Part shown: positions 4,452-55,265 of the stretch, piece by piece
Position numbering within the stretch: position 1 is the stretch's first letter
How the letters are laid out: each line of letters begins with the position of its first letter
Source of the DNA: a virus
Lineage: Duplodnaviria; Caudoviricetes
DNA: 62,134 nt
Reading direction: 5' to 3' (one strand)
Virus record (IMG/VR): IMGVR_UViG_3300037264_004886
Coordinates: 1 to 62,134 of that record
Notes under the pieces: model-generated
Told to the model about the DNA's origin: nothing
Seen by the model: only the letters and a program-made list of their open reading frames with translations
Database searches by the model: none
Program-made: the position numbers and the translations under genes

Positions 4452-4635
4452 ATCCTTACCTGCCAACAGGCTTGCCCAATATAACATTTCAAACGGTTTT
4501 TAGGACACGTCTTTTCTGTGCCTTTACATACGACACAATTCTTATTATTCAAAATCTCATTACTCATCAACTTACACCGATTAGTCATATTATGTAATGC
4601 GCTTTAATATGTATTAAAACTTTCTACAAAAAAAA

Positions 4636-16954: not shown

Positions 16955-17005
16955 TGAGTTGCTGGACCCCGGGCACCAGGGGTTCTAGAAATCTCTAGGA
17001 AACGT

Positions 17006-17110
17006 GCTACGAAAATTCAGTTTCGTTGTACTTGTTGCTACGAAAGTTAAAAATCGTAGCACTTGTTGTTACGAGATTTTTTGTTTGTTTTACTTGTTGC
17101 TACAAAAATC
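17006..17110. repeat. 31-bp-phased ACTTGTTG(C/T)TAC iteron-like repeats; candidate origin
   Basis: Copies at 17030, 17061, 17092, with GCTACGA...TCGTAGC dyad, inside a ~1.4-kb non-coding gap at a strand switch. Confidence 0.6.
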
Positions 17111-17841
17111 TGGTTTTGTCGCAAGTCCTAAATTTCCAAAATAATATACATATTTTTCCTGATAACGTCATAGAGATTTCATAGAGATTGTAAATTTTTC
17201 CAAATTTTCCGATTTTTCTGAAATTTCAGATTGATCGGAAAAATACTCCAAAAAACGCTCCCGGCAGCACTTTTTTCGATTTTTTTGGAAAAAACCCATT
17301 TCTAGCAAATTTCTAGGAAATAGGCTAGCGTATACCCCCGTTTTGACCATAATAGCGGAAAATGAGGTTTTAGGTCACTTTTAGACCTTTCCGGGATATG
17401 GCAAAAAGCAACAATTTTTTTTTGTATACATTTTATGATTTTACCGATATAACCCAAAATCAAAAATACAAAATTTAGAAAAGGACCCGACCCCCAGGAT
17501 CAAGGCACCCCTTAACAGAATTGAATAGGATTAAAGAGGAAAGTATATATAGAAATGAGATAGAGAGATAGATAACCCCAAAAAGGGTTAAGGAGAAAAG
17601 GAATGTCAGAAAACACAACATCAGAAACCAAGAGCGTAAAGAACGTTGAACACACCCACACCCTTCAGTCAATGATCAGGACACGTCACAAGGTAGAGAA
17701 CATAATTATGATCTCGTTACTTGCCGCCGCGCTATCTGTATTCATATACTGGATTATTCATTAATTTTTTCCCCTTTTTGAAATCACCCCGGACCGCACC
17801 CGGGAGGGGATATCCCCCACAAGGGGAAAGGTGAAACAAAA

Positions 17842-22992: not shown

Positions 22993-25299
22993 TTACTTTT
23001 GTTTAATGATAACCATTGTTGGTTTATCATTTCCGGGTTTGGTTACACAGTGACAAACGATTTCTCCAGATTCCACAAGTGTCGCAAGAGCCTGATCTAA
23101 GTCTTTTTTGCCCAAATGTGTTTGTCTGAGCACCTTTGTCCGGTCCGCAACACCTCCAAAATGGTTTATTGCCTTCATCACAATCACTTGGTGGTTCTTA
23201 ATATCAAGACTATTGCATAGATCATATACGTACATAGTACGTGGTATTAAGTACTGCTCTACGATCTTGACTGCCATCTTTGCGTGTTTGTCTGGGATTT
23301 GAACTTTGATTGGATATGAAACGGCATTCAACACCTGGTGCTGGAACGATTTATCAAAAAAAGACAGAATGGTTGCTATTTTGTATGCGTGAACGAACCC
23401 CCGCGAAATTGCGGTCCTGAACGATTCATCTTCTTTTTCAAGTCTATCAGAAGTTATCTTTATTTTCCAATCTTCAATTATATCGCACACACCAAAAACA
23501 ATACTATCGTTTTGAAGAGGAGATAGAGATTCTCGTAACTTTTTTATATCGTTGTTTATTCCTGCCAAGATTTGTTTATCCGTTTCAGATACATTTTCAT
23601 TTTTGCGTGGTTGTCCACCTTGCCCCCAGAACCACATCAGTCTCGGGAAGAACCCGGATGAAAACAGCCTGGCGCTGGCAACCTGTTCGATATCTTTGGT
23701 TGTCGTATTGAATAACAACGACATAAACGGAAATGGACACTCCCATTTGAATTGTTCTCCGTTTTTAGACCGTTTGGAGAGCGTTCTACTAACCACGGTC
23801 CCATCGTAAATAGTACATAATGTCCCAAGAATGTGGGCGTTCCACGTTGTAATTTCGTCAAAAAAGCCACCACAATCGTCATAGTGCCAGAACGTATTAT
23901 ATGTGTCACTTAACCCCTGGATTAATGCGGGTTGACTGAACGTTCCCGTAATAACGTTTGTAGAGTAACATTTTGCTATCGGTTCTTCATAAATTATAGA
24001 ATGTTGGAACGCTTTGACTGCCATATTGCACGCTACAGACTTACCACTGATAGTTGTCTGACCGACAACCATTGCAAACACGTTGGGGTAAATGCTGACC
24101 ATTCCGACTTCGGCAACGGCTTTTCTGCCAATTGCCATTGAAGCAAGTGATAATAACGCGGCAAAATGAAACTCGTCTAATGAATATGAAACCCGCTTTC
24201 CAAAATCCATATACTCTTTAAAAATACCGTCGGTTAACTTTGGAAACGCCGGAAGCAAACATCTCTTTTTCGCCTCTTCAATTTCGGTTTTTAGTTCTGA
24301 TTCCGGTTTTGGTGTGAGTAATGTTTTTGTAATGGTTGCGCCGTGCTCAATGCTCTTTTCATATTCGGTTTTAACCCCAAGTTGATTGGCAGCTTCTTTC
24401 AAGGCTTTAATTACATCCCCGCCACATTCAAAATGGCAGAACATATCAAAAGCGTCGTGGCTTTTTGAACTGTCAAACGGTTCGGACCCGTGATGTGAGA
24501 ACATCCGGTTCTCTTGCGGGAAGATGTGAACTCCAGCAAGTCCGGTTGTACTGAACGGAGAAAGATACCGAGTAGGTGAAACTTTTTTATATCCGTTCCG
24601 TTCCAGAATAGAAGTTACAGATACGAACTCGTTAAATTTTTGAATTATATTATCGTTAGAAGAGTTGGTCGACGTTGTCTTTGATTTAGGTGGCGAAACT
24701 TTAATTTTTATCCACGGACAGGCGTTTACCAATTGTGGTCGGAACACACCCCATTCCGCCCAAATAGACAACAACTCTTTCGGTAGTGGGGGGATTTTGG
24801 TTGTAGGTTCTACAATCCATTCATACGGTTGGTGCGTGTCCGGGTGAATTGATGGCGGCAACACATCCTGAACCATCCCACCACGCAACTCAAAGACAGT
24901 GTGGGTTTTGGTCGGATCGTCTTTATCTTCCCACGACAACTTTTTGGTTGATAGTTCTATTATAGGGGGAGCTGAGAAGATTGCTTTGTCGTGCCCGGGT
25001 CTCCCTTTTATCCGGGGCGCACCTTTAAAAAGAATATCATATTCAATTCCAAACTCTTTTAAAAGCAGTTTTGTTTCGGTTATATTATCAATATCAACCA
25101 CAACAAGATTGGACGGTGCGAGCAATACACCCATATTATCAGACGTGTGCGTTTTCCAATACTCCGGTTTGGCAGTGTTCTCAACAGTGTTCCACCCGGG
25201 TGTTTTCGGTCCTTTTGTTCCGGGAGGTATTGGAACCAGATACCAGTTGAGTGATTGATATTGTTGTGCAGCTTCAAACGTAGATATCAAAGATATCAC
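22993..25299 (-). CDS. Bifunctional primase-polymerase fused to DUF3987-like helicase/ATPase domain
   Basis: PIPPGTKGP...NMGVL...VVDID...VLPPSIHP prim-pol motifs; C-terminal GQTTISGKS P-loop and SGFFPR. Confidence 0.8.
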   Translation of the reverse strand: MISLISTFEAAQQYQSLNWYLVPIPPGTKGPKTPGWNTVENTAKPEYWKTHTSDNMGVLLAPSNLVVVDIDNITETKLLLKEFGIEYDILFKGAPRIKGRPGHDKAIFSAPPIIELSTKKLSWEDKDDPTKTHTVFELRGGMVQDVLPPSIHPDTHQPYEWIVEPTTKIPPLPKELLSIWAEWGVFRPQLVNACPWIKIKVSPPKSKTTSTNSSNDNIIQKFNEFVSVTSILERNGYKKVSPTRYLSPFSTTGLAGVHIFPQENRMFSHHGSEPFDSSKSHDAFDMFCHFECGGDVIKALKEAANQLGVKTEYEKSIEHGATITKTLLTPKPESELKTEIEEAKKRCLLPAFPKLTDGIFKEYMDFGKRVSYSLDEFHFAALLSLASMAIGRKAVAEVGMVSIYPNVFAMVVGQTTISGKSVACNMAVKAFQHSIIYEEPIAKCYSTNVITGTFSQPALIQGLSDTYNTFWHYDDCGGFFDEITTWNAHILGTLCTIYDGTVVSRTLSKRSKNGEQFKWECPFPFMSLLFNTTTKDIEQVASARLFSSGFFPRLMWFWGQGGQPRKNENVSETDKQILAGINNDIKKLRESLSPLQNDSIVFGVCDIIEDWKIKITSDRLEKEDESFRTAISRGFVHAYKIATILSFFDKSFQHQVLNAVSYPIKVQIPDKHAKMAVKIVEQYLIPRTMYVYDLCNSLDIKNHQVIVMKAINHFGGVADRTKVLRQTHLGKKDLDQALATLVESGEIVCHCVTKPGNDKPTMVIIKQK

Positions 25300-31423: not shown

Positions 31424-32076
31424 TTCCACTCAATACGATCCAGTGCCGTGATTGCCTTGAGGGGATGCAGGAGATCCCGGATAAGAGCATTGATCTGGTT
31501 ATTACTGATCCTCCGTATGGGATTGGTGAAAATAATGAACAAAATGTACGCCGGGAAAACCTCGCAAAACCAACAGATTACGGGCATTTTGAATGGGATA
31601 AACAACCTGCAGCACAAGAGCACTTCGATGAGATATTCCGCATATCCAAAAATCAGATCATATTCGGCGGGAATTATTTTGAGCTTCCGCCTTCCCCATG
31701 CTGGATAGTGTGGGATAAAAATAATACCGGAGATTTTGCCGACTGTGAATTAGCGTGGACTTCGTTTAAATCCGCAGTAAGGAAATTCACCTATAAATGG
31801 AATGGAATGTTACAGGAAGATATGCTGCACAAAGAGATCCGTGTCCATCCCACACAAAAACCCGTTAAACTCTTTGAATGGATCATTAAAAACTACGCAA
31901 AAGAGGGGGATATAATCTGTGATCCGTTTTTCGGGAGCGGTTCATGCCTCGTTGCGTGTGTAAGAATGGGACACTCGTTTATCGGATTCGAGAAGGAGCA
32001 ATCATATTTCGATGTAGCACAGATACTCATAAAGAAAGCACAAGAGCAAGGAAAGATCGGGACGTGGTTTGAATGA
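31420..32076 (+). CDS. Beta-class N4-C/N6-A DNA methyltransferase
   Basis: DPPY precedes HPTQKP and DPFFGSGS. Confidence 0.9.
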   Translation: MIPLNTIQCRDCLEGMQEIPDKSIDLVITDPPYGIGENNEQNVRRENLAKPTDYGHFEWDKQPAAQEHFDEIFRISKNQIIFGGNYFELPPSPCWIVWDKNNTGDFADCELAWTSFKSAVRKFTYKWNGMLQEDMLHKEIRVHPTQKPVKLFEWIIKNYAKEGDIICDPFFGSGSCLVACVRMGHSFIGFEKEQSYFDVAQILIKKAQEQGKIGTWFE

Positions 32077-32179
32077 TCAGCGATTTGGTAGTAATAGCAA
32101 TCTTTACTGGTGCAATAGGGTTCTGCATCGGGTGGTTCGGGGCGTGGGGTGTGCTCGGAGCGTGGTGGGAAGTGAGGGA

Positions 32180-32737
32180 ATGACACCCGAAGAACTAAAA
32201 ACGATCTTAGAAAATCATTTGAAATGGCTGAATGATGAGCCGGATGGAGAGAAAGCCAACCTGAGTTCCGCCGACCTGAGTTTCGCCAACCTGAGTTCCG
32301 CCAACCTGCGTTTCGCCAACCTGAGTTCCGCCAACCTGAGTTCCGCCGACCTGCGTTCCGCCAACCTGAGTTCCGCCAACCTGCGTTTCGCCGACCTGAG
32401 TTTCGCCAACCTGAGTTCCGCCAACCTGAGTTCCGCCAACCTGCGTTTCGCCGACCTGAGTTTCGCCAACCTGAGTTCCGCCAACCTGAGTTCCGCCGAC
32501 CTGCGTTTCGCCAACCTGCGTTTCGCCAACCTGCGTTCCGCCGACCTTGATTTTTCTTCCGGGTTCTCGTTTCAATGTTCATCATTCGGTGCAAAAATCG
32601 ATATCCGGCTTGGAGCACAGTTAGCCTATCATTTCTGCCGCATGGACACGAATGATCCGGAGGTTCAGGCAGCACAACGGGCGATCAAGGATTTGGCAAA
32701 CAAGTTTCACCGTGTAAAAGAATGCGGGGAAATTTAA
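32180..32737 (+). CDS. Pentapeptide-repeat protein
   Basis: A(N/D)L(S/R)(S/F) repeats encoded by 15-bp tandem repeats at ~32254-32547. Confidence 0.9.
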   Translation: MTPEELKTILENHLKWLNDEPDGEKANLSSADLSFANLSSANLRFANLSSANLSSADLRSANLSSANLRFADLSFANLSSANLSSANLRFADLSFANLSSANLSSADLRFANLRFANLRSADLDFSSGFSFQCSSFGAKIDIRLGAQLAYHFCRMDTNDPEVQAAQRAIKDLANKFHRVKECGEI

Positions 32738-38501: not shown

Positions 38502-40373
38502 TTAAAAATCAAACGGGTTCTTCCCCCGGGGTTTATACCCTCGCGGAATCCCCACAACTTTCCCAAGTCCTTTAATCATCGGGTTCCGGGATATCCGAAT
38601 GTTAATATCACCGCTCTTACCTTTCTTTTTAGCAGGAGTGGTTGGTTTCTTTGGAGTGGGTTTCGGTCTTCGCTCTCCCAATCCTGCGAACGGGTCCCCG
38701 AACGCCCCTGCCCGTCCCAACCCCGCCAGCGGGTCCGGATGTGCTCCGCGCCTGGGTGCAATTCCACCCATGAAGTTGTCCATTCCCCCGGGCGATCCAC
38801 CGAAACTGCGAGGCGACGGCATATACGCTTTACCCGGGTTATACGACGGTGCTTTGAACGCACCCCGGCTCTCTTTGTTGGACCGCGGGCGACCGGGTGG
38901 GTTCGATTGGTGCGGCATTGCTTTTCGTAACCGTTGCTGCTGTTCGGCTTCGTGGATTTTGCGTTCCATCGCGGTATCTTTTGCCATACTACGCGCTTCT
39001 CTTTCTGCTGCTGTGGGCGCAACGGTTTTTCTGATGGTTTCTTTTACTCCAGTAACGAGTTTATCAGAAGTTTTACCGATTACCTGAACAGGTTTTGATT
39101 TTGCAAGTTGCTGTCCGGTCGACAACCCTTCTTTTACCTGGCGTTGCTGAGCGCGAATAGATCGCTGGTCGGCAATTTCTTTATCGATCTTACCTTGTGC
39201 CAGCGCGTCTTGAATTTCTTTGTTGCGCTTTACACGTTTCGCGTTCGCTTCGTCTGCTCTTTGCTGTGCTTGCATTTCAGATTCTTGCTGTGCCCGGTAC
39301 GCTGCCTCTTCGCGCTTTTCTTTGCTGTCTTCGAGTTTGTCTCTGATTGCATCCAGAAAACCCATCATCTACCCCCGTCTAAAGACGTTACTGTCCCGGG
39401 CGCTCGCAACCAGTCTCTTTGCGTCCGGTAGTGCAAGTGCTTTACCCTGTGCGTTCACGCCACGCATCCGCACCTGGGGGACTTTGATTTTCTGAACTTG
39501 TAGTTTGTTCCCGTCCGGTGCTTTGAATACAGTTTTCCATTTGTTGGTTAATGCTACCATTTTCTTTTACCTCCACATTTTTTTATGAAATGAAACCATC
39601 CCGCGTGAGCAGGGTTGGCGTTCGACATCCGACCAATCTTCGCTGTTCCCAACTTCTTTTGAAGAATAGTCTCGTTTCTCTCCAAACCAATATCTCGGGG
39701 TGGTTGACGACAACATTACGATCTCCCCCGTTTTTTTGTTTTGTTTAGATCGTTGAACTGGCATTCTCTACCTCCTCTTAGCTACATTCAGGGCGAAGTT
39801 CGCCCTGTATTTCGTCTTGGTGTCAATCACAACACCGCCCACCTGCCCGCCAATCGGTGTCTGTACGATTTGCCGGAGTAGACTGGTCGGCACGGGCGCT
39901 TGGTCGGAGATCCCGAACTGTGCTTTCAGCGCTCGCTGTTTCGGTAGGGACTTACCGGACCCGAACCCGAAGTTCGAGCCGCCCCCTCGCCCAAACATGT
40001 CGCCGGGAATGGGAGTCATGGCGACTTCGGGATTGCGTTCATCAGTCCAACGGCAATACCGCCAACCATACCGATTTTGGCGACATCCACGATTCCGTTT
40101 GCCAGGTTGTCCATCCCACCAGTCTGCGGTTTCATAGCGTATGGGTTCCTGCGTGCCGGTGCCGGTCTCGGGCGTCTCGGGACTTCAAATGGATCAGAGA
40201 AATCAAACGGGTTCCGCCGGTACGGGTTTTTGGGTCTTGTAGGGTTCTTCATAGTCTTTCTCCTTTTACACCGATAACTTTTCTGTCGGCGTGTTCAATC
40301 ATCTCATGCATTTTCTCTTTGCTGGGAATACCAATCCCATACGGATTGTACCGTTTTTCTTTAGGAATTTGCA
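38502..40373 (-). other. Operon of small basic/Pro-Gly-rich proteins (38502-39368, 39369-39560, 39567-39764, 39768-40019, 40016-40252, ~40249-40373); candidate nucleoproteins
   Basis: Coupled ORFs, K/R-rich; NPFDF motif in two; TTTATATA promoter at ~40397-40404. Confidence 0.55.
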
Positions 40374-40415
40374 TAGTTGCTAATGAGAATAGAAAATATA
40401 TAAAGGTTATGTATT

Positions 40416-40680
40416 CCCAACCCCCGGGTGTGAACCGGGGGTTGGGGGGATGTTGTGCTGACTTGTGTGGTGCTGTGTCGTGCCGTGTTGCGCGGTGTAG
40501 TGGCGTGTCGTGATGTGCCGTGCCGTGGCGTGTTGTGTTGAATCAAACTTTCACTACCTCGTTTGACCGAAGTAATGAAATGTTGTGCTGACTTGTGTGG
40601 TGCTGTGTCGTGCCGTGTTGCGCGGTGTAGTGGCGTGTCGTGATGTGCCGTGGCGTGGCGTGGTGTGCAGTGTCGTGGCG
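40416..40680 (-). ncRNA. Two CAC+NN pentamer arrays (20 and 18 units), each followed by a hairpin; candidate guide RNAs
   Basis: Strict 5-nt period; 73-bp identity between 40450-40522 and 40580-40652; hairpins at 40549-40580 (two G.U pairs on the minus strand) and 40416-40447. Confidence 0.75.
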
Positions 40681-40688
40681 AAAAAATT

Positions 40689-41180
40689 TTATGCTACTAT
40701 GGGGTTAGCTTCCGATATCTGAACCGACTTTTTCAGTCCGAACCGTTTTGCCATTCTTGCTTTTCCCAGTATAGCGTTTCCAACAGTTTTGTTGTTTTCA
40801 AATACATCTTTTGTGTATTGCGGTAGTTCTTCAGAATGGGTTGTTTCGAGGTTTGTAGTTGCTTTAACCATTCTGCGGGTGCTACCGATAATTCGTTCTG
40901 TTTTGTTCGATGCGATTGTAATAGAGTTTTCAACCGAACTTAAAATGTATCCGTAGTTCGGTTTGTTTAAACACTCTCTGCCCAACCGTTTGCACGCGGT
41001 ATAGAACATTCCGCGATTCGCACCGGCTTTGATATCAAAGCTAAGTTCTTCTTTCAGTTCTTTATATGTTACCTCTTCCCCGTTCTTTTTGGCAAGAAGA
41101 TACGCTTCGAGTTTGAGGGTCTCTTCCGATGGGGTAAAAGTTGGTTTCTTTTTGGGTTTTGAATCTTCAGTGTATTTCAT
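40689..41180 (-). CDS. Putative winged-helix-like accessory protein of the RAMP operon
   Basis: GEEVTYKEL...GYIL pattern; between the RAMP gene and the arrays. Confidence 0.5.
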   Translation of the reverse strand: MKYTEDSKPKKKPTFTPSEETLKLEAYLLAKKNGEEVTYKELKEELSFDIKAGANRGMFYTACKRLGRECLNKPNYGYILSSVENSITIASNKTERIIGSTRRMVKATTNLETTHSEELPQYTKDVFENNKTVGNAILGKARMAKRFGLKKSVQISEANPIVA

Positions 41181-41185
41181 GAAAA

Positions 41186-41743
41186 TCACTTCCATTTTAT
41201 TGAAGTGACTTCAAACCGTCCGAAGTATCCACGGTTCCGAACCCGGAACGCACCCAGACCGATCAGGTTCCCGGCAGTCATTAAGACCTCTTCAAAGATT
41301 TCTTTGGTAATCATATCGTCAAGAATGATTACATCGGTTGAACCTTTCCATGCGTCGATAGTTGGGAAATGCCGGGTTACCTTTGACTTTCCGCCGATTG
41401 TTCCGTCGGAAGAGCAACGAATAGAACTTTTCTTTACGTCGTTGATATTGATTCCGAGCGGCATGTGGTTCGTTACAAGAATACCGGATTCAAAATGTTT
41501 CGTCCACGTTTCATTGCGGCGCCCGGGGATCTTCTTGTTTAAGAATTTACACGCCTCTTTGATAGCAATCGCAATCGCCATTGGGGGGATTGTAACAATT
41601 CCGTCTGGATCTACGTGGGCTTTGTTTTTCCATGTTCGCTCTTCCCACGCATCGGGCTGTTCGCCGTCGAGTTTTGGGGTGTTGTGGTATCTGGACTGTG
41701 CGTATGCAGACAATGATTTCAGGGTGATTGTACATGTTCTCAT
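41186..41743 (-). CDS. Stand-alone Cas7/RAMP-like RNA-binding protein
   Basis: N-terminal beta strand (ITLKSLS), IPPMAIAIAIKEA (cf. IPGSSLKGALR), C-terminal Gly loop AGNLIGLGAFRVRNRGYFGRFEV. Confidence 0.75.
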   Translation of the reverse strand: MRTCTITLKSLSAYAQSRYHNTPKLDGEQPDAWEERTWKNKAHVDPDGIVTIPPMAIAIAIKEACKFLNKKIPGRRNETWTKHFESGILVTNHMPLGININDVKKSSIRCSSDGTIGGKSKVTRHFPTIDAWKGSTDVIILDDMITKEIFEEVLMTAGNLIGLGAFRVRNRGYFGRFEVTSIKWK

Positions 41744-41869
41744 TTACTTTCCTCCAGTTTTTCCATCATATCCACACGCTCTACACTTTACCGAACCGTC
41801 TTTTCGGAAATAGATTGTTTTCCGTTTGCAGTTCGGACAAACCGGGATTTTAGTATCCTGTGTTGTCAT
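41744..41869 (-). CDS. 41-aa Zn-ribbon protein, first gene of the RAMP operon
   Basis: Manual translation MTTQDTKIPVCPNCKRKTIYFRKDGSVKCRACGYDGKTGGK; TATA about 25 bp upstream; stop abuts the RAMP ATG. Confidence 0.65.
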   Translation of the reverse strand: MTTQDTKIPVCPNCKRKTIYFRKDGSVKCRACGYDGKTGGK

Positions 41870-41907
41870 ACAAAGAGATTGGTTGTATTTGCATTTATAT
41901 TTATTTG

Positions 41908-42627
41908 TTAGATAAGTTTCAAAACTTTAACCCCGATCATCATTATACAAATAAGTAAACTAAAAACCAATATATATATTCCATATTTATTTAAATCTTC
42001 TTGTTTCGTTTGCTCCGAAAGTTTCGCCAACTGCCGGGTGTAACCGGCGAACGCCCCCATACTTTTAGGCGAGAATGCGGATCTTATCCGCAACCACGGT
42101 ACTGTTATAGTGGAGTCTATCGGGCAGGTTATCATTCCGGCTTGTAATAGCGCCCCAAATCTCAGCAGCGTATGGATTTCATCCGTTCCTGGGTGTGCCT
42201 CATTCCAGATAGTTACCGCTTTATCAATCTCTTGTCGTGCAGGACTGTCAAGTTCTGTCCATCTATCAGCATCAAGTATTAAATCTGCGGTTGTTTTTCC
42301 GATCATTCCTGATGGTGAGTAGTCCCACACTTTCTGGGCTTTTTTAGCTTGTTCTGGAGTTTCATTGAATATAAGCTTCGCTTTTTTTTCGCTTTTCAAA
42401 ACAAAATTTAAATTTGAATCGAATGTAAATGCGACTTGTTCGTGTCTGATGGCAGCATAAAACAAACCCCAGAGCGGCTTCAACGGACTCCAAAAAAGTA
42501 CGTGCCATCCGACGTAAGAACCGACTGCGGCAATAGCTAGCGCCAAGATGATCCAGTAGTAAACTTGTAATCCGAGCGCCAGAGTATTTAGAACCCCGCC
42601 AAAAAGCAAAACGGGCATTTTAATCAA
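41908..42627 (-). CDS. Membrane protein (N- and C-terminal TM); probable paralogue of 43662-44453
   Basis: Same topology; AFTFDSN vs AFMFGKN. Confidence 0.6.
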   Translation of the reverse strand: MIKMPVLLFGGVLNTLALGLQVYYWIILALAIAAVGSYVGWHVLFWSPLKPLWGLFYAAIRHEQVAFTFDSNLNFVLKSEKKAKLIFNETPEQAKKAQKVWDYSPSGMIGKTTADLILDADRWTELDSPARQEIDKAVTIWNEAHPGTDEIHTLLRFGALLQAGMITCPIDSTITVPWLRIRSAFSPKSMGAFAGYTRQLAKLSEQTKQEDLNKYGIYILVFSLLICIMMIGVKVLKLI

Positions 42628-42633: not shown

Positions 42634-43533
42634 TTAACACCATGCAACACCTTCAATCCAGTTATTACAGATGATCTTTACAAGCAATTCCTGTAATATT
42701 CTATCCATCAATTTCGTGGGGATGCCGAGATCGTTTAGTTTTGTAATGTCAAGTTGGTATGCGTGTTCGAGTTGTCCATCTGTGAGGATGTTGGTTGCGG
42801 TTTCTAATTGTATCGGATCTGATATTTTTGATTCAAGTAATTTTGTCATGTCGGTTCGTATTGTTTTTGTGTATTGTTCTCCAACATAGGCAAACTGGAT
42901 TGAGGCATCGTTTGCTTTCCTACCCTTTTTCCGCAAAACTTCTTTCCACGACTTTGCAGAACCGTAACTAAATAACCCACCGAGCTGTGGATCAACCGGA
43001 CCAAGACACGCGAATGCCCCCATAAATAATTGATCACAACTTAATGCAAGTATTGTCCCACCGGACATTGCATAAAATGGAACGAATGCCCGCACTTCTG
43101 CCCCGTAACTTTTTATTGCTTTAGAAAGCAGTTGTGTGTAAAACACATATCCCCCCGGTGTGTGTAAGATGAGATCAAATGGTTTCCCTTTAAATGATTG
43201 AAATGCCCGCTCAAGTTTGTGGAGTGTGGTCAGGTCGATCATTGATTGAGAAAACAACCCGGATTCAGTGTGTTTTATAAGTATTGTGTTACGTCCGGTT
43301 ATATTCTTAAATTTACGTAGAATGTATTTGACGTATAGATTTCCTATGATTGGTTTGATATATCCATCCCACATAAGCACAATCACAAAGAACGCCGAAA
43401 TTAAAGTAATAAGCATTAAAATAAGATATTGCGTCCATTCGGTAGTTGCCAGTACATTTACTTGTAATGGTATTCCCCCAGAACTCCGGGTGGCGTTGAT
43501 TATTGTCAGTATGTCTGCCGTTTCAAGTGTCAT
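42634..43533 (-). CDS. SDH/ClpP-crotonase-family serine protease, membrane anchored
   Basis: DLILHTPGG, VPFYAMSGGTILAL, LGPVDPQ. Confidence 0.85.
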   Translation of the reverse strand: MTLETADILTIINATRSSGGIPLQVNVLATTEWTQYLILMLITLISAFFVIVLMWDGYIKPIIGNLYVKYILRKFKNITGRNTILIKHTESGLFSQSMIDLTTLHKLERAFQSFKGKPFDLILHTPGGYVFYTQLLSKAIKSYGAEVRAFVPFYAMSGGTILALSCDQLFMGAFACLGPVDPQLGGLFSYGSAKSWKEVLRKKGRKANDASIQFAYVGEQYTKTIRTDMTKLLESKISDPIQLETATNILTDGQLEHAYQLDITKLNDLGIPTKLMDRILQELLVKIICNNWIEGVAWC

Positions 43534-45712: not shown

Positions 45713-46075
45713 TCATTCCCCCCGGTCCATATACTTGAACGAATCATCAATCAGTTGTCCATATCCTCCGTGAACAAGTTCGCCCATGTGGTCTAATACG
45801 TGAGCACACACGAAATTGGAAGTCTCCCACTTCCCTACTTTATATAAGTTTTCGGCGTTCATACACAACCCCACACATTCGTCAAAGATTGGTTTGAACT
45901 CATCAAACTCCCCTGTAAGTTTCGATGCAATGATGAGTGCGGATACCAGGTTGCGAGTGTTCCCGGGTTTCCGGGACGGATCGATTCCGCGAGCGTTGAC
46001 ATAATGTGCCCCGATCTCCATTCGCAACTGCGTATTGATCTTTTTCTTTCTTTCTTCAAATGTTAAAAGCGCCAT
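45713..46075 (-). CDS. Hypothetical protein
   Basis: Overlaps the ATPase 3' end. Confidence 0.55.
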   Translation of the reverse strand: MALLTFEERKKKINTQLRMEIGAHYVNARGIDPSRKPGNTRNLVSALIIASKLTGEFDEFKPIFDECVGLCMNAENLYKVGKWETSNFVCAHVLDHMGELVHGGYGQLIDDSFKYMDRGE

Positions 46076-47228
46076 GTTTCACCGCGTGTTTACTCTTCTT
46101 TAATCGTATTTTCAGTTTGCCGAGAATGTCCAAACAGAGTTTCTGGTGGATTCCGAGATACGACGCCAGTCTTGCAACATTCGTATTCGGTTCGTCTGCG
46201 ATAAACTTCTGAATTTCAAGTTCGTATTTCATCGCCTGGTCTGCTACGTTCTGTTCGTGGAGGGTTGGACCTTCCCGCACTTTGTGTTTTGGTTTTGGTT
46301 TCTGCACCGGGTTCCGGAACGTCCCGGTCTCTACAATGCGTTTGTTGACGTCTAACGCAGATTGTTCGCGCTGTTTGTCGTATCCGACAATTAGTTCGGT
46401 TGGAGGTTTTAATGAAACCCAGAAATCTATTTTCCGTTTACCAAAACCCATACGACGGTTATACTCTTTCCCCAAAAACCCAATTTCAGATGAGTTGACT
46501 TTAACTAAATTGAATCCTCCAGCGTGAAACGATTTGTAGATGCTCATTGTAATATCGCACATTTCACGGACTTGGTTGTCGACGTGTTTTTTTAACGGAG
46601 CTGTGAGTAACAATATCCAGCGGTTCGTCCGGGCAACCGTCATTAACGCATTGAAGTTTCGGTTCTGTGGTGAGTTCCAACTTCGGTTACTGACTGCTAA
46701 ACTACAATCATCCACAATTACAATCTGATACTTTCCGGCATCCTTTAAAATTTGCATTACTCGGTCGGTATCTTCGAGGGTAGCGACGTGATTTAATGAA
46801 AAGTAATCTTTCCAATCTCCCCCCAACACTTTTGCAATTTCGTGTGCGATTCGATATGCAATCCACAACGCCGTATACGATTTCCCAGAACCTCGCCTGC
46901 CTTGAATGAATATGATTAAGTCCTGCCGGTCTGTACCAGTAACCCGTTTCGCCGCCCAGATACAGAACGGAGAATCTGGAACCGGGATTTGTTGTTTTTG
47001 GATCTCGGTTACATAGTTCGCCATTCGTTTAATGGCGCCTGGAGTAGCCGGACCCAAATCTATCAACCCGGTAATCCCGGGCACCCACGGGATGACTACT
47101 GGCGGAGGAGGGGGTGGTTTTGGAAACATCACGTCGTAATCATATTCTTCTACGGGCGCCGGGGCGATCTCTACGCCAATCTCTCCGTCATCTACGATTG
47201 GTTGATCTTCTATGTCGTCTTCCGTCAC
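46056..47228 (-). CDS. Zot-like / packaging-type P-loop ATPase
   Basis: GRRGSGKS, IVIVDD, R...ILLLTAP...VDNQVRE (Zot-like D..(I/V)R); C-terminal HTH-like segment. Confidence 0.75.
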   Translation of the reverse strand: MTEDDIEDQPIVDDGEIGVEIAPAPVEEYDYDVMFPKPPPPPPVVIPWVPGITGLIDLGPATPGAIKRMANYVTEIQKQQIPVPDSPFCIWAAKRVTGTDRQDLIIFIQGRRGSGKSYTALWIAYRIAHEIAKVLGGDWKDYFSLNHVATLEDTDRVMQILKDAGKYQIVIVDDCSLAVSNRSWNSPQNRNFNALMTVARTNRWILLLTAPLKKHVDNQVREMCDITMSIYKSFHAGGFNLVKVNSSEIGFLGKEYNRRMGFGKRKIDFWVSLKPPTELIVGYDKQREQSALDVNKRIVETGTFRNPVQKPKPKHKVREGPTLHEQNVADQAMKYELEIQKFIADEPNTNVARLASYLGIHQKLCLDILGKLKIRLKKSKHAVKHGAFNI

Positions 47229-48557: not shown

Positions 48558-49241
48558 ATGGTTGCCGGTAAATGTTCTGATCCTATAAAAGAAGCAGAGC
48601 GCATTCGTAAAATGGCAGAAACAAAGCGTTCGCAACATAGGCGTGTCGTTCATTCAGAAGAAGCACGCAAAAAAATGTCGGAAGCTAATTTGGGTGTGAA
48701 ACACCATCAATATGGAAAGCCGATTTCTGATGAAGTAAAACAAAAAATATCAATAACAATGTCTGGTCGTAAACGTCCGCAAAGATCCCCCGAATGGTGT
48801 CGTAAAATATCAGAGGGGCATAAAGGTAAACGACATACAATGGAAACCCGCATGAAAATGTCTAAAGCTCAACTTGGAGAAAAAGCAAAGTTGTGGAAAG
48901 GGGGATTGTCTTATGGCTTGTATTGCAAAGATGCAAAACCGTCTTATAAGCGAGTCCGTGCATATTTCAGTCATTGTTGTGTTAGGTGTGGTCAACCACA
49001 AACAAAAGAAAAATTGTGTGTGCATCATGTAGATTATGATAAAGAAGCCGGTTGTAAAGGAAAGAAATTTTGGGCTGTAACTCTGTGTCGTTCGTGTCAT
49101 ACTGAAACCAACAACAACCGCGAATATTGGGAATCACAATTCAAAGAAATGATAACGAATTATTATGGTGGGAAATGTATGCTAACCGAACAAGAGTTTA
49201 AAGATTTATATTCGGTGATTCCGGATGTTATCACCCAATAA
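48558..49241 (+). CDS. NUMOD3-repeat HNH endonuclease
   Basis: HSEEARKKMSEA repeats; CVRC...LCVHHVDYDK...LCRSCH...N. Confidence 0.75.
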   Translation: MVAGKCSDPIKEAERIRKMAETKRSQHRRVVHSEEARKKMSEANLGVKHHQYGKPISDEVKQKISITMSGRKRPQRSPEWCRKISEGHKGKRHTMETRMKMSKAQLGEKAKLWKGGLSYGLYCKDAKPSYKRVRAYFSHCCVRCGQPQTKEKLCVHHVDYDKEAGCKGKKFWAVTLCRSCHTETNNNREYWESQFKEMITNYYGGKCMLTEQEFKDLYSVIPDVITQ

Positions 49242-50436
49242 GCACCTCCTCAATACAGACGTTCTCACAGCAGCTCGTGGTAGGATCTCCTGGATGTTCG
49301 ACACATTTGAGCGGGTGTGCGTAAGTTTCTCTGGGGGAAAAGACTCTTCGGTAATGTTTCACCTGGTAATGGAAGAGGCAATAAAGCGGGACCGTGTTGT
49401 TGGTGTTATGTTTGTAGATTGGGAAGTCCAGTTTACGCATACGATAGAGCACGTCCAGAAAATGTTTGATTTGTATAAAGAACATATTGAACCGTACTGG
49501 ATTGCGCTTCCGTTCAGGACAGAGAACTGCACCAGTATGTTTGAACCGGAGTGGATTTGTTGGGAGCCGGGTAAGAAGTGGGTTCGGGATGTGCCAGCAT
49601 CGGGAATAAATGATTACAAGCAGTTCCCGTTTTATACGTATCCGATGACGTTTGAAGAGTTTGTTCCGAAGTTTGGACAATGGTATAGTGACGGAAAATT
49701 AACTGCGGTGGTTGTTGGGATTCGGGCGGACGAATCGTTGCATCGATATAGCACGATAACATCACAGACCAAAACGCGGTTTGAGGATAAGGGATACACT
49801 ACACAACTGTCTGATAATGTGTATAACGTGTATCCGATTTACGATTGGAAAACTACCGACGTGTGGACGTATAACGGCAAGTATAATCGGTTATCAAACC
49901 CGCTGTATACGCTTATGTACCGTGCAGGGGTTCCGCTTCATAATATGCGAGTTGACGAACCGTTTGGTGAGAAACAGCGGAAGGGATTGTGGTTATACCA
50001 CATTTTAGATCCGATAATGTGGGCAAAAATAGTAGAGAGAATAAACGGTGCGAACTTCGGGGCGTTATACGTAAAAGAGCGGGGAAACATTCTTGGGAAT
50101 TACGGAGTAACAAAACCGGAGAGCCACACGTGGAAATCGTATGCAGAGTTGTTGTTAAATTCTATGCCAATAAAAACGGCGGAACACTATAAAAACAAAA
50201 TTGCTGTATACTTGCGATGGTATCAGGTACGTGACTATCCTGTGGGGATACCGGATTATCAGGACAACGATGTCGGTCCGAAAGATGCATATCCGAGTTG
50301 GAGGCGGGTTTGTAAGATTCTGTTACGGAATGATTACTGGTGTAAAGGATTGTCGTTCAGTGTCCAGAAATCTTCGGCAACAGAAAAATATTTGAAACTA
50401 ATGAAAATCAGGAGAGAACTATGGAATCTGATTTAA
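49225..50436 (+). CDS. ibrA: IbrA/YbdN-like PAPS-reductase-family protein (DUF3440)
   Basis: VSFSGGKDS, GIRADESLHR, YPIYDW, PSWRRVCK.LLRNDYWC. Confidence 0.85.
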   Translation: MLSPNKHLLNTDVLTAARGRISWMFDTFERVCVSFSGGKDSSVMFHLVMEEAIKRDRVVGVMFVDWEVQFTHTIEHVQKMFDLYKEHIEPYWIALPFRTENCTSMFEPEWICWEPGKKWVRDVPASGINDYKQFPFYTYPMTFEEFVPKFGQWYSDGKLTAVVVGIRADESLHRYSTITSQTKTRFEDKGYTTQLSDNVYNVYPIYDWKTTDVWTYNGKYNRLSNPLYTLMYRAGVPLHNMRVDEPFGEKQRKGLWLYHILDPIMWAKIVERINGANFGALYVKERGNILGNYGVTKPESHTWKSYAELLLNSMPIKTAEHYKNKIAVYLRWYQVRDYPVGIPDYQDNDVGPKDAYPSWRRVCKILLRNDYWCKGLSFSVQKSSATEKYLKLMKIRRELWNLI

Positions 50437-53370: not shown

Positions 53371-53564
53371 ACTATTGGCGTGGATATTGCTTTCTGTGGG
53401 CGTTCTGTTCGGTGCGATAGTTCTGTTCTACGCCGGGTATATGCAGACACATGACTTGATACGGGCGGGTGTGTCGGCAGTTGTGTTGACTATGGTGGTG
53501 TGTGGTGTTGCAGCACTTGTCTTTTACAAGCGACCGGATCCGCTTGCACCCGCTGAGTACGGAG

Positions 53565-55265
53565 ATGATGATAACGATGACGATAACTAAAAAACAACTG
53601 TGGCAAGCGGTAATTGATATCGGGTTCTGGGGGGGGTTGATTTTCGTGTTGATATTAACGGTTGCGGTGTGCTCTCCCGCCCACGCAAATATCAATATCA
53701 CCCCATATCCAACCGAAACTCCCACAATAACGTATACGTTCACTCCGATACCTACCACGACAATCCCCACGGTAACCTATACCCAGTTACCGACCCCGAG
53801 CACGACAATAGTGGTCCAACCAACCAATCTTACGTCACCATCAGTAGAACCGATAAAACGGATTGAGCAGGGCGAGACCGTCTATCTCGGAGACACCTAC
53901 GATATTTCAGGAGTTGTCGGGTGGGCGACATACCTGGCGTGGTATAACAGTTACGAGCCGGAGCCGGGCGTAACCCCGTGGACGTTACAACTCCCGAACA
54001 CTAAAAAGGGGTACTATATGTTTTACATCGACCCACTAGTATTCTCTGATAAGTTGGGCGACTGGTATCAGTATTATGGAAATTATGAAAGTGCCGGGAA
54101 CCTACGGGCGTTCCGGGTAGCCCCCGCGAGCGAGAAACCGATAACGTATATGAATGTCACTGAGAACAAAACAATTGCCGAAAACAAAACCGCTGAGAAG
54201 CCGTGGTTACCGGTCCGGCACGTTGCCGATTACCTGATTGCCCGGGGGGACTCGTTTAATATCACGGTTAACAGTCCGACTACAATGTGGCTGTTCGGGA
54301 CGAACACCGGGATTTACGATACCAAATCGTTTAATGGAACCATCCAAATTAACGCCAGCGTGATGAACTCGTTGGAACCTGGAAGGTATAGGTTACTGTT
54401 GCAAACCTACGGGCAGAACATTGACGATTTCACGATGCGGTATAACGTAGAAACCCAAAAACTCGAATGGTTTGATTTCAAGAATTTTCTGGTTTACAAA
54501 TGGGACGTGTCTGGGTATTCTCCGCAAGTTCTATACAACAAGATAATCGAGATCCGCCCGCAACTGATTGATACGTTCTCCGAATATACATTCGAGCTGC
54601 AGGAACCGTCAGTCAGTATCACGCAAATCGATCCGAGAACCGTATCAGAATACGGACATCTGATGAGTGGGCAGGAATACGTCAACAACCAGACGTATTT
54701 GGATATTCGCGGGTATACGAACGTCGCCCCAGGAACGAAACTATACTTTGTAATTGACGAAGATAAACAAACTCCGCTTACGATTAACCGAAGCACCATT
54801 ACGGGCGAAGTATGGGGGGAGTATGGAGGAGATATGCGATACTTCGTTTCGGTTGTGCCGGTCGACAAGTACGGTGCGGGGATCGGACAACATGAAATAA
54901 CTGTCACAACGGCGCTGGGGGGTAGTTCGATTGTACCGTATTACGTTTACGACGCTCCGGTGGGTACTTACGTCAGGGACAAACCCATAAGATATATTGC
55001 GGGGAGGATTGGGGACACAGAGTTCGTCCAGACGCCCACTCCGGAAATAATCGTAAAAGAAGTGACGAAACAAGTTACGGTTATCAGAACAGTTACGATC
55101 CCGGTTACTCCGAGTAAAGATTTTGTGCGGGCGCAGCAAGACGCTGTGATTACGGATAAGATTTGGTTCTACGGAAAATGGGTGTTAGGACTGATTGGTG
55201 CCGGGTTGGTTGTCGGATACATCGGATGGGTTGTGGTGCGGGCGCGACGGGGGAAGAAGGAATGA
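53565..55265 (+). CDS. Surface glycoprotein, DUF3821-like, Thr-Pro linker, C-terminal TM anchor
   Basis: I.QGETVYLGDTYDISGV resembles Methanomicrobiales DUF3821 proteins; TM at both ends. Confidence 0.55.
   Translation: MMITMTITKKQLWQAVIDIGFWGGLIFVLILTVAVCSPAHANINITPYPTETPTITYTFTPIPTTTIPTVTYTQLPTPSTTIVVQPTNLTSPSVEPIKRIEQGETVYLGDTYDISGVVGWATYLAWYNSYEPEPGVTPWTLQLPNTKKGYYMFYIDPLVFSDKLGDWYQYYGNYESAGNLRAFRVAPASEKPITYMNVTENKTIAENKTAEKPWLPVRHVADYLIARGDSFNITVNSPTTMWLFGTNTGIYDTKSFNGTIQINASVMNSLEPGRYRLLLQTYGQNIDDFTMRYNVETQKLEWFDFKNFLVYKWDVSGYSPQVLYNKIIEIRPQLIDTFSEYTFELQEPSVSITQIDPRTVSEYGHLMSGQEYVNNQTYLDIRGYTNVAPGTKLYFVIDEDKQTPLTINRSTITGEVWGEYGGDMRYFVSVVPVDKYGAGIGQHEITVTTALGGSSIVPYYVYDAPVGTYVRDKPIRYIAGRIGDTEFVQTPTPEIIVKEVTKQVTVIRTVTIPVTPSKDFVRAQQDAVITDKIWFYGKWVLGLIGAGLVVGYIGWVVVRARRGKKE

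What the first reader, a model, noticed from the sequence alone, without database searches (positions are those of the whole stretch)
40450..40680. Gapped dinucleotide code in the arrays; two related guides share a core
Seen (minus strand NN series): unit 1 GC GA TG AC GC GC GG AT GA GC TA CG AA GG GA AG CA AA AG AA; unit 2 AA AA GC GG GG AT GA GC TA CG AA GG GA AG CA AA AG AA. The last 14 dinucleotides are identical and the 5' ends differ. NN positions are diverse while the triplet is almost invariant, unlike a slippage microsatellite. The linker TTTCATTAC-TTCG-gtcaaa-CGAG-GTAGTGAAA pairs fully only on the minus strand (two G.U pairs), favouring co-transcription with the RAMP gene. Inference: the NN series spells a target, possibly NN-x-NN-x, which could skip codon wobble positions and resist synonymous escape; the two units may cover two target alleles.
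Basis: partly seen in the sequence, partly recalled or inferred. Interest (0 to 1): 0.85.

Follow-up and report, generated by a model that had tools for sequence, protein, structure and literature searches.

The report
Viral VIPR guide RNAs, CAC variant

Summary
On the minus strand, 40580-40679 and 40450-40539 are 20 and 18 units of NN+CAC. The last 14 NN are identical, and each array is followed by a hairpin.

The gene two places upstream (41186-41743) folds as a Cas7-like RAMP. It is homologous to the Vipr protein of phage SUSP1 (hhalign probability 96.6%).

This matches the VIPR system described in 2026 bioRxiv preprints. A Vipr filament sequesters the fixed trinucleotide and exposes NN. 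The NN pair with DNA read as NN-x, and x tends to fall on codon wobble positions.

The fixed triplet here is CAC, not the canonical GGY. A fourth preprint already lists CAC/NN arrays as non-canonical VIPR.

In IMG/VR, 33 of 46 other loci with diverse GTGNN arrays carry a homologue of this RAMP, and all 84 arrays read NNCAC on the gene strand. Close homologues in genome assemblies use GGC, GAC, CGC or CTC on the gene strand. This supports the minus-strand reading.

I found no target. Exact-seed scans at gaps 0-3 gave at best 13 of 20 NN.

This is a new member of a known kind, and its target and host are unknown.

The parts
41891..41906 (-). A/T-rich TATA-like box about 25 nt upstream of the zinc-ribbon ORF; putative promoter of the module
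   Evidence: Read by eye. This is inference; no promoter tool for archaeal promoters was run.
41744..41869 (-). 41-aa zinc-ribbon ORF (CPNC...CRAC). Its stop codon abuts the vipr start codon.
   Evidence: Sequence. Only sub-threshold zinc-ribbon hits. Role unknown.
41186..41743 (-). vipr: 185-aa single-domain Cas7-like RAMP with a C-terminal glycine-rich loop (GLGAFRVRNRGYFGRF)
   Evidence: AlphaFold2 mean pLDDT 94.6. Foldseek top hits are type VII Cas7 and Csm3, E 4.5e-8. hhalign to SUSP1 Vipr gives probability 96.6%, E 4.8e-10. Matches phrog_4652. No Pfam, NCBIfam or PADLOC family.
40689..41180 (-). 163-aa accessory gene (vap-like?): predicted winged-helix domain followed by a long helical hairpin
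   Evidence: Eight metagenomic homologues and a record of the window's own protein, whose start at MKYTED I adopt. AlphaFold2 pLDDT 83.7 with H-b-H-H-b-b topology. Foldseek hits are weak; the best is the wHTH protein 1ku9, E 6e-3.
40580..40679 (-). vrRNA unit 1: 20 x NN-CAC
40549..40580 (-). 13-bp hairpin with two G.U pairs; 3' tail of unit 1 and linker to unit 2
   Evidence: pairs checked by eye
40450..40539 (-). vrRNA unit 2: 18 x NN-CAC. Its last 14 NN are identical to those of unit 1.
40416..40446 (-). Perfect 12-bp G+C-rich hairpin; 3' tail of unit 2 and/or the end of the transcript

Best explanation
The region 40416-41906 (minus strand) is a compact VIPR (Viral Interference Programmable Repeat) module in a viral contig. 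It comprises a zinc-ribbon ORF, a vipr gene (a Cas7-like RAMP), a winged-helix-like accessory gene and two vrRNAs.

Shown here:
- the RAMP fold of the vipr product;
- its homology to the characterised SUSP1 Vipr;
- the family-wide linkage of this protein to 5-nt arrays on its own strand.

Inferred from the published mechanism:
- The arrays are transcribed on the minus strand.
- One Vipr protomer binds each pentamer. Protomers sequester the fixed triplet (here CAC, not GGY) and expose the NN dinucleotides.
- The filament pairs NN with double-stranded DNA that reads NN-x-NN-x, skipping one target base per unit. This would give footprints of about 54-60 bp.
- Binding silences transcription of a competing mobile element.
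- The two units are duplicated guides sharing 14 of 18 NN, so they would aim at the same or closely related sites.
- The hairpins are the counterparts of the structured 3' tail of published vrRNAs.
For: 1. Protein fold. The AlphaFold2 model has mean pLDDT 94.6. There were 136 PDB matches with E<=0.001, led by type VII Cas7, Csm3, Cmr4 and Cas7-11.

2. Homology to SUSP1 Vipr. A profile of 22 family members hits one ORF of phage SUSP1 (KT454805.2, 28501-28740, minus strand), E 7e-10. hhalign gives probability 96.6% over 132 columns. In that ORF, 9 of the 10 residues I checked by number from the structure preprint's text (H17, K33, E71, M72, R138, C173, D177, W178, R179) are as named; position 175 is V, not T. 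It is flanked by GGYNN arrays on its own strand.

3. Linkage in IMG/VR. Of these, 46 besides the window carry arrays with diverse NN, and 33 of the 46 encode a homologue of the window's RAMP within 2.5 kb. All 84 arrays in those 33 loci read NNCAC on the gene strand, and 14 loci have arrays on both sides of the gene.

4. Fixed triplet, free NN. Over 98 arrays and 1291 units, entropy is 1.95 and 1.99 bits at the NN positions and 0.11-0.16 bits at CAC. The search pattern itself selects for CAC.

5. Triplet variants on the gene strand. Of 28 homologues in genome assemblies (37-48% identical for the full-length matches), 19 had a full fixed trinucleotide that I could label: CAC (1), GGC (3), GAC (5), CGC (6), CTC (3), GTC (1), all on the gene strand. 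In L131 and L133 T-runs follow the units. So CAC occupies the place that GGY has in SUSP1.

6. RNA structure. The minus-strand RNA leaves the arrays mostly unpaired between two strong hairpins.

7. Literature. The VIPR architecture and the 1-nt skip rule are published. CAC/NN and GAC/NN arrays next to Vipr-like folds are already reported as non-canonical VIPR (bioRxiv 10.64898/2026.10.21.760802, passages only).

8. Codon imprint. In 25 of 71 guides and 15 of 34 loci, the NN series fits codon positions 1-2 in sense better than five other phase and strand models. The uniform expectation is one in six (p about 1e-4). The control with N1 and N2 swapped gave 4 of 71. N1 is 37% G.
Against: - No target was found. 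At 1-nt skip, a 9-NN seed gave 0 hits in viral contigs. Two 8-NN seeds gave 10 and 17 hits. A 9-NN seed gave 94 hits in metagenome contigs. The best extension was 12 of 20 NN, below the 80% cut-off used in the preprint. The hits lie in unrelated proteins.
- Gap controls did no worse: gap 0 gave 16 hits with a best of 13/20, gap 2 gave 24 hits with a best of 11/20, and gap 3 gave 10 hits with a best of 11/20.
- A cross-targeting test of 101 guides against 1.1 Mb of fetched loci showed no excess at any gap.
- The triplet differs from the only one studied experimentally. The SUSP1 residues said to read G1 and G2 (H17, D177, R138) align to S, A and F in this protein. How CAC is held is therefore inferred.
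- The two tails differ from each other and from the SUSP1 pseudoknot.
- The 18-20 repeats exceed the 9-16 reported.
- The codon-imprint test has low power (about a third of simulated true cases are classed correctly). It could also reflect a composition constraint on the RNA.
- 13 of the 46 diverse-array loci showed no RAMP homologue within 2.5 kb; I did not check how many of these loci are cut short.
Confidence: 0.82

Rival explanations
1. The arrays are vrRNAs, but read on the plus strand as GUG/NN, antisense to vipr and from their own promoters.
For: GUG is G-rich like GGY. Each plus-strand unit is preceded by a hairpin and a shared 5' part. An A/T-rich box lies upstream at about 40393-40402 (read by eye).
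Against: - In SUSP1 and in close homologues with GGC arrays, the G-rich triplet is on the gene strand.
- All 84 CAC-type arrays keep the same orientation to the gene.
- T-runs follow the units on the gene strand in L131 and L133.
- The linker stem is unbroken only on the minus strand.
- The plus-strand RNA is predicted to fold extensively on itself (-106 kcal/mol).
- The A/T-rich box sits at the right distance for the minus-strand ORF starting at 40374.
- The preprint that lists this variant writes it CAC/NN.
Confidence: 0.06
2. The arrays are a binding track for an oligomeric protein that reads only the triplets, and the NN are free spacers. This resembles the trp attenuation protein TRAP on GAG/UAG repeats (recalled from memory). 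They would then regulate or package the neighbouring genes and guide nothing.
For: The triplet-plus-two-spacer geometry is the same. No target was found.
Against: - The linked protein is a Vipr-type RAMP, not a TRAP-like protein.
- For the homologous SUSP1 system, recoding NN reprograms silencing.
- Free spacers would not be expected to carry a codon-position-1-like G excess.
Confidence: 0.05
3. The arrays act at the DNA level, as iterons, a packaging site or a partition site made of 5-bp repeats.
For: They lie in an intergenic gap. A capsid-protease-like gene is nearby (42634-43533).
Against: - The strict strand asymmetry relative to one protein family argues for RNA.
- The G.U-dependent stem argues for RNA.
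- The transcript-end T-runs in two relatives, L131 and L133, argue for RNA.
- A 5-bp period would put successive sites on opposite faces of B-DNA.
Confidence: 0.03
4. The vrRNAs are real, but their main role is defensive or as decoys. They would redirect or titrate a competitor's Vipr rather than silence a target for this virus.
For: Satellites and phages carry vrRNAs that redirect another element's VIPR (abstract of 10.64898/2026.10.15.759431). No target was found here.
Against: The arrays sit in one module with their own vipr gene. The published decoys are solo vrRNAs.
Confidence: 0.04

Closest known systems
VIPR type II system of Escherichia phage SUSP1 (bioRxiv 10.64898/2026.04.26.720920 and 10.64898/2026.04.26.720927)
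   Same: - A small stand-alone RAMP homologous to the window's protein.
- 5-nt tandem repeats with a fixed trinucleotide and free NN on the gene strand, next to the gene.
- A structured 3' end after each repeat tract.
- A small accessory gene.
- A viral genome, with no Cas family among the 25 ORFs scanned against Pfam.
   Different: - The fixed triplet is CAC, not GGY.
- The tail is a simple hairpin, and differs between the two units, rather than a conserved pseudoknot.
- There are 18-20 repeats against 9-16.
- The residues that read G1 and G2 in SUSP1 are not conserved.
- The two proteins are only 25% identical over the aligned part.
- The accessory gene has no relative among the 46 related IMG/VR loci.
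- A zinc-ribbon ORF precedes vipr.
Non-canonical VIPR arrays (CAC/NN, GAC/NN and others) found by token-entropy periodicity (bioRxiv 10.64898/2026.10.21.760802; passages only)
   Same: A fixed CAC with variable NN at a 5-nt period, next to a protein with a Vipr-like fold.
   Different: That report is a computational listing of clusters. I could not see its figure S10, so I cannot say whether this locus or its clade is among them. It describes about 10 repeats per array, against 18-20 here.
Cas7 backbone of class 1 CRISPR effectors (type III Csm3/Cmr4, type VII Cas7)
   Same: A RAMP fold with a glycine-rich loop and, by the model's secondary structure, a thumb-like beta-hairpin. By analogy, one protomer binds per RNA period and interrupts pairing.
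   Different: - The period is 5 nt with 2 pairing bases, against 6 nt with 5.
- There is no CRISPR array, and no Cas family among the 25 ORFs scanned against Pfam.
- The guide lies inside a microsatellite-like tract instead of a spacer.
- No sequence-profile match to any Cas family.
TRAP-RNA recognition (11 GAG/UAG triplets with 2-3 nt spacers); recalled from memory, not tested
   Same: Triplets read by a protein oligomer, with two intervening bases.
   Different: The protein fold is unrelated. In TRAP the spacers carry no information.

Membership tests
VIPR system | Vipr protein: a single-RRM RAMP with a glycine-rich loop and a thumb | tested here: met
   High-confidence model. The top Foldseek hits are Cas7-family chains. 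The motif AG.FIG.G.FRP.NGG..GRF is conserved in 22 family members. The thumb is inferred from the beta-hairpin at residues 104-129 in the model's secondary structure; I did not inspect it in 3D.
VIPR system | Sequence homology to an experimentally characterised Vipr | tested here: met
   Profile hit to the SUSP1 ORF, E 7e-10. hhalign probability 96.6%, E 4.8e-10, 132 columns.
VIPR system | Flanking tandem pentamers with a fixed trinucleotide alternating with hypervariable NN, on the vipr strand | tested here: met
   Window. Family: 84 of 84 arrays on the gene strand, NN entropy about 2 bits. The trinucleotide is CAC, not the canonical GGY.
VIPR system | Canonical GGY (or the listed NNNGG, YNNNG, NNNNG) repeat consensus of the first preprint | tested here: not met
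   CAC contains no G. Only the pyrimidine at the third position is shared. A later preprint accepts CAC/NN as non-canonical VIPR.
VIPR system | Structured, conserved 3' tail after the repeat tract | tested here: inconclusive
   A hairpin follows each unit, but the two differ in sequence. Relatives show a short conserved end (..AA-CAC-GA-CAC-GACAAC..TTTTCC) instead.
VIPR system | Accessory vap gene with a DNA-interacting fold | tested here: inconclusive
   The 163-aa neighbour has a winged-helix-like topology, but only weak structural matches, the best at E 6e-3. No sequences of vap1-6 were available for comparison.
VIPR system | vrRNAs are expressed and co-purify with Vipr | not testable with these tools
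   No sequencing run listed as holding the stretch is on record as RNA.
VIPR system | Natural targets matching at least 80% of NN under the 1-nt skip rule | tested here: inconclusive
   Exact-seed scans only; best 12 of 20 NN. The sensitive nhmmer search used in the preprint could not be run on the collections.
Class 1 CRISPR-Cas | A CRISPR array of repeats and spacers, and further cas genes next to the RAMP | tested here: not met
   No such array among the 50 tandem-repeat rows. No Cas family among the 25 ORFs scanned against Pfam. The three module proteins have no significant Cas match: none for vipr or the accessory protein, and only weak zinc-ribbon-type hits to Cas12 and TniQ models for the 41-aa ORF.
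TRAP-like triplet-binding attenuation | A TRAP-fold oligomeric RNA-binding protein linked to the repeats | tested here: not met
   The linked protein is a RAMP.

The most novel reading that the evidence does not exclude
In this Vipr clade the fixed trinucleotide is itself a second, evolvable address. Proteins 37-48% identical use CAC, GAC, CGC, GGC or CTC, always ending in C, and the triplet tracks the protein tree. A virus could thereby keep its Vipr from loading a competitor's decoy vrRNAs, and its own vrRNAs from arming a competitor's Vipr. On this reading the window would be a member of the CAC type, possibly in an archaeal virus, with hairpin-capped guides. Triplet switching would be an arms-race response to vrRNA hijacking.
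Probability: 0.2. Interest if true: 0.6.

Novelty: new member of a known kind. Interest (0 to 1): 0.4.

Why it matters
VIPR is a newly described RNA-guided DNA-recognition system with a gapped code. All experimental work I read concerns GGY/NN guides expressed in Escherichia coli (the SUSP1 and P. fulva systems).

This locus adds a clean CAC/NN module: two long, nearly duplicated guides, simple hairpin tails, a zinc-ribbon ORF and an unrelated winged-helix-like accessory gene. It sits in a sediment virus whose other genes hint at an archaeal host.

Together with the relatives collected here, it shows three things:
- the first two positions of the fixed triplet vary between fairly close Vipr proteins, while the third stays C;
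- the arrays always lie on the gene strand;
- guides seem to arise by duplication and divergence.

These are useful starting points for asking how Vipr reads its triplet and whether different triplets are orthogonal. It does not open a new class of system.

Tried and rejected
Early ideas
- Before the literature search I favoured a TRAP-like spacer model or DNA iterons. I dropped both once the linked protein proved to be a Vipr-type RAMP.
- I considered that the arrays are coding (5 nt x 3 = a pentapeptide period). I set this aside without a formal test: array lengths are not multiples of three units, and the plus-strand ORF 39857-40513 overlaps several minus-strand ORFs.

Searches that found nothing
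- Rfam: no family at gathering threshold in the window.
- tRNA scan: none.
- A single-protein scan of viral contigs with the RAMP found no relative. The relatives came from the DNA pattern scan instead.
- tblastn of the RAMP against GenBank phages: no match. The SUSP1 homologue appeared only with a profile.

Expression and read data
- Expression: no RNA holder listed.
- Read laying used contigs only. The arrays were poorly covered outside the probable source run. One contig of run X2 joins 40447 to 41895, and another joins 40451 to 41975. This would mean a relative without the module, but the sides are only 25 and 34 letters, so I do not count it as evidence.

Target search
- See the Against line. 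No hit reached 80% of NN at gaps 0, 1, 2 or 3.
- The many hits encoding (I/M)(D/E)AYR(K/N)G(D/E)(S/R) lie in unrelated proteins such as small heat-shock-like ones. They reflect the codon-like make-up of the seed, not a target family.
- No self-target in the window: the best was 8 of 20, the same as shuffles.
- Cross-targeting among 101 guides and 1.1 Mb of fetched loci gave no signal.

Specificity residues and tree
- The aligned equivalents of SUSP1 H17, R138, D177 and W178 show no simple covariation with the triplet type.
- The tree of 28 proteins is mostly unresolved (4 of 25 inner branches well supported). Triplet labels are nonetheless clustered: 15 changes against a shuffled mean of 21.
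- Rows left out of that tree: the 19 IMG/VR CAC-type proteins (chosen by their triplet), L156 (whose repeat map is identical to that of L133) and L158 (a fragment).

Host
- Not established. Homologues of the DUF3821 protein carry no organism names. Control genomes gave no handle to reach methanogen genomes.

Not available or not run
- Supplements and figures of the four preprints were not seen. Figure S17 and data S4 of the first, and figure S10 of the Evo-PIN preprint, may already place this clade.
Full report
**What is in the sequence**

The window is a 62,134-bp IMG/VR viral contig, estimated 73% complete.

Between 40450 and 40679 the plus strand reads GTGNN again and again. On the minus strand this is NN-CAC.
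- Unit 1 (40679->40580) has 20 pentamers.
- Unit 2 (40539->40450) has 18 pentamers.
- The two units are a 130-nt tandem duplication, 98% identical over 88 nt.
- CAC is intact in 32 of 38 units. The three exceptions (CGC, GTC, CAT) sit at the same places in both units, two of them among the last three units at the 3' end.
- A five-unit GTGNN pattern matches 14 times in the window, all inside the arrays, and never in 100 shuffles.

On the minus strand the arrays are predicted to be mostly unpaired. Each is followed by a hairpin:
- a 13-bp stem with two G.U pairs at 40549-40580;
- a perfect 12-bp G+C-rich stem at 40416-40446.

On the plus strand the first stem is interrupted, and the G/U-rich arrays fold on themselves.

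**The surroundings**

Four elements lie head to tail on the minus strand:
- a 41-aa zinc-ribbon ORF (41869-41744), whose stop codon abuts the next start codon;
- a 185-aa ORF (41743-41186);
- a 163-aa ORF (41180-40689);
- the arrays, which begin 9 nt after its stop.

A/T-rich boxes lie about 25 nt before the zinc-ribbon ORF and before the next small ORF at 40374. I read these by eye and did not test them.

The 185-aa protein matches no Pfam, NCBIfam or PADLOC family. Its only profile match is PHROG 4652, of unknown function.

**The linked protein family**

- Many are plain microsatellites.
- 46 loci besides the window carry arrays with diverse NN, often several in tandem or on both sides of a gene of about 190 codons.
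- 33 of these 46 encode a homologue of the window's 185-aa protein (33-49% identity) within 2.5 kb.
- All 84 arrays in those 33 loci have NNCAC on the gene's strand. 14 loci have arrays on both sides of the gene.
- Over 98 distinct arrays, the NN positions carry 1.95 and 1.99 bits of entropy and the CAC positions 0.11-0.16 bits. The search pattern selects for CAC.

An alignment of 22 members shows an invariant glycine-rich C-terminal motif. An AlphaFold2 model built from it has mean pLDDT 94.6. Foldseek against the PDB gives 136 matches at E<=0.001, led by type VII Cas7, Csm3, Cmr4 and Cas7-11.

**What is known**

[quoted passage not shown] I read its Results and methods sections 18 and 20, but not its figures or supplements. 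It describes VIPR systems as follows:
- A stand-alone ancestral RAMP (Vipr) and an accessory vap gene.
- vrRNAs of 9-16 pentamers in which GGY alternates with hypervariable NN, followed by a structured 3' tail.
[quoted passage not shown] - The complex silences transcription, and natural targets are competing phages and satellites.

A companion structure paper (10.64898/2026.04.26.720927; abstract and sections 5-6 read) adds these points:
- One protomer binds per repeat.
- G1 is read by H17 and D177, and G2 by R138 and W178.
- Y3 sits in a pocket that excludes purines.
- One target base is extruded per unit.

A third preprint (10.64898/2026.10.15.759431; abstract only) reports that the codon periodicity of the guide prevents mutational escape.

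A fourth (10.64898/2026.10.21.760802; passages only) reports 21 clusters of 5-nt-period arrays with non-canonical fixed triplets, 'e.g. GAC/NN or CAC/NN', next to Vipr-like folds.

A second search for the system's names found no further relevant paper.

**Membership, tested here**

- The 22-member profile finds one ORF in phage SUSP1 (KT454805.2, 28474-29061, minus strand), E 7e-10.
- hhalign gives probability 96.6% over 132 columns.
- That ORF carries 9 of the 10 residues I checked by number from the structure paper's text; position 175 is V, not T.
- It is flanked on its own strand by GGYNN arrays.

So the window's protein is a Vipr homologue, and in the reference system the guide strand is the gene strand.

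A scan of one genome per species found 28 further homologues, 37-48% identical for the full-length matches. Almost all are in bacterial metagenome-assembled genomes, and one is in a Nanoarchaeia bin. A period-5 scan and direct reading gave a full fixed trinucleotide, on the gene strand, in 19 of the 28:

| Triplet | Loci |
|---|---|
| CAC | L131 |
| GGC | L135, L143, L146 |
| GAC | L133, L145, L147, L154, L156 |
| CGC | L134 (uncertain), L136, L142, L149, L151, L152 |
| CTC | L137, L138, L141 |
| GTC | L139 |

- Three more (L132, L144, L148) showed only a partial pattern ending in C (GnC, CnC).
- Two (L155, L157) gave uncertain patterns that do not end in C.
- Three (L140, L150, L153) had no clear array.
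- One (L158) is a fragment.

T-runs follow the units on the gene strand in L131 and L133. Several triplet types share an A-rich end such as AA-GAC-AA.

This places CAC where GGY sits. Only the final pyrimidine is kept, which fits a conserved Y3 pocket.

On a tree of 28 proteins the triplet labels are clustered (15 changes against a shuffled mean of 21). The window pairs weakly (60/60) with the one CAC-type genome locus. Most branches are unresolved. I saw no simple covariation between triplet type and the equivalents of H17, R138, D177 and W178. In the window's protein these are S, F, A and F.

**The accessory gene**

The 163-aa protein has eight metagenomic homologues, besides a record of the window's own sequence, and none is named. 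None lies among the 46 related IMG/VR loci. Its model (pLDDT 83.7) shows a winged-helix-like H-b-H-H-b-b unit followed by a long helical hairpin. Foldseek matches are weak and are mostly winged-helix regulators; the best is 1ku9, E 6e-3. This fits the preprint's statement that several vap genes are predicted DNA binders, but it is not a test of homology.

**The target**

At skip 1:

| Seed | Collection | Hits |
|---|---|---|
| 9 NN | viral contigs | 0 |
| 8 NN (unit 1, NN 1-8) | viral contigs | 10 |
| 8 NN (unit 1, NN 9-16) | viral contigs | 17 |
| 9 NN | metagenome contigs | 94 |

Extending every hit over the whole guide gave at best 12 of 20 NN.

The hits encode a short (I/M)(D/E)AYR(K/N)G(D/E)(S/R) motif in unrelated proteins. 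They therefore reflect the codon-like make-up of the seed, not a target family.

The same 8-NN seed at other gaps, in viral contigs:

| Gap | Hits | Best extension |
|---|---|---|
| 0 | 16 | 13/20 |
| 2 | 24 | 11/20 |
| 3 | 10 | 11/20 |

The window has no self-target at any gap: the best is 8 of 20, the same as shuffles. This agrees with the preprint's report of no self-targeting.

A local test of 101 guides against 1.1 Mb of fetched loci showed no excess at any gap.

Exact seeds of 8-9 NN can miss a target that matches 80% of NN, and the host's genomes could not be reached. The negative result is therefore inconclusive.

**An indirect test of the wobble idea**

If guides copy codon positions 1-2 of their targets, their NN should look like those positions. 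I trained six phase and strand models on each locus's own long ORFs and left out the first and the last three units of each guide.
- 25 of 71 guides and 15 of 34 loci fit 'sense, positions 1-2' best. The uniform expectation is one in six (binomial p about 1e-4).
- Swapping N1 and N2 gives 4 of 71.
- N1 is 37% G and 26% A.
- Both window guides fall in this class.

Power is low: about a third of simulated true cases are classed correctly. Guides within a locus are related, and a composition constraint on the RNA could mimic the signal. I count this as weak support.

Read that way, unit 1 would mirror a coding stretch of the form A-(D/E)-(C/W)-T-A-A-G-(I/M)-(D/E)-A-Y-R-(K/N)-G-(D/E)-(S/R)-(H/Q)-(K/N)-(S/R)-(K/N). 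Unit 2 differs at three of its 18 positions, two of them by single-base changes. That is compatible with two alleles of one site, and equally with a duplicated guide that is drifting.

**Verdict**

The strand call is supported.

The system is not new. The locus is a new member of VIPR with the already listed CAC/NN repeat. Its distinguishing features are long duplicated guides, hairpin tails, a zinc-ribbon ORF and an unrelated winged-helix-like accessory gene.

Other genes in the contig hint at an archaeal host, but the host is not established. They include a DUF3821 protein, a PKD-rich giant protein, a Zot-like ATPase and a primase-polymerase.

Target, expression and the way CAC is held remain open.

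Noticed in passing
window 32069-32737 (+), tandem repeat 32255-32547: A 15-nt unit repeated 19.5 times (GCCAACCTGAGTTCC) lies in frame in a 222-aa ORF. That ORF is a pentapeptide-repeat protein (Pfam PF00805, E 2.1e-23). In one search its only relative was an ORF next to a CAC-type array in L062.
   Followed up: partly
window 40447-41895: One contig of a freshwater-sediment run (X2) joins 40447 to 41895, with three other letters between. Another joins 40451 to 41975. This looks like a related virus lacking the whole module (arrays, accessory gene, vipr, zinc-ribbon ORF). The sides are only 25 and 34 letters at 80% likeness, so the evidence is weak.
   Followed up: partly
L131-L157 (genome-contig loci): Vipr homologues 37-48% identical to the window's protein use different fixed trinucleotides on the gene strand: CAC, GGC, GAC, CGC, CTC, GTC. 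All 19 loci with a full trinucleotide that I could label end in C, and two further uncertain patterns do not. The three CTC loci are all cyanobacterial and form a well-supported clade.
   Followed up: partly
L042 6090-7330, L056 7480-9050, L087 900-1700: In CAC-type relatives the vrRNA units follow one another directly. They are separated only by a conserved junction of about 14 nt (GACAAC.GTTTTCC). They start a few bases after the vipr stop codon. Neighbouring units are often near-duplicates with different 5' ends, as in the window.
   Followed up: partly
L052 5974-7589: One IMG/VR relative has arrays of 20-38 units in unbroken register. That is far longer than the published 9-16 and may be several abutting guides.
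   Followed up: no
window 16621-16707, 17005-17109, 17168-17321: A cluster of short direct repeats (25-nt x 3.4, 31-nt x 3.4, several 9-18-nt repeats) lies in a stretch with no ORF of 100 aa or more between about 16400 and 17800. It is possibly an origin or a regulatory region.
   Followed up: no
window 7690-12447 (-), 53502-55265 (+), 46056-47228 (-), 22993-25299 (-), 49225-50436 (+), 3387-4487 (-): Gene content of the contig: a 1585-aa protein with PKD, glycine-rich and laminin-G-like domains; a DUF3821 protein; a Zot-like ATPase; a primase-polymerase with DUF3987; a PAPS-reductase/DUF3440 protein; a NUMOD3 protein. No terminase, portal or tail family turned up among the 25 ORFs scanned against Pfam.
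   Followed up: partly
window 42634-43533 (-): A ClpP-like SDH-type serine protease (PF01972, E 8.8e-34) lies upstream of the module, with weak PHROG matches to head-maturation proteases.
   Followed up: no
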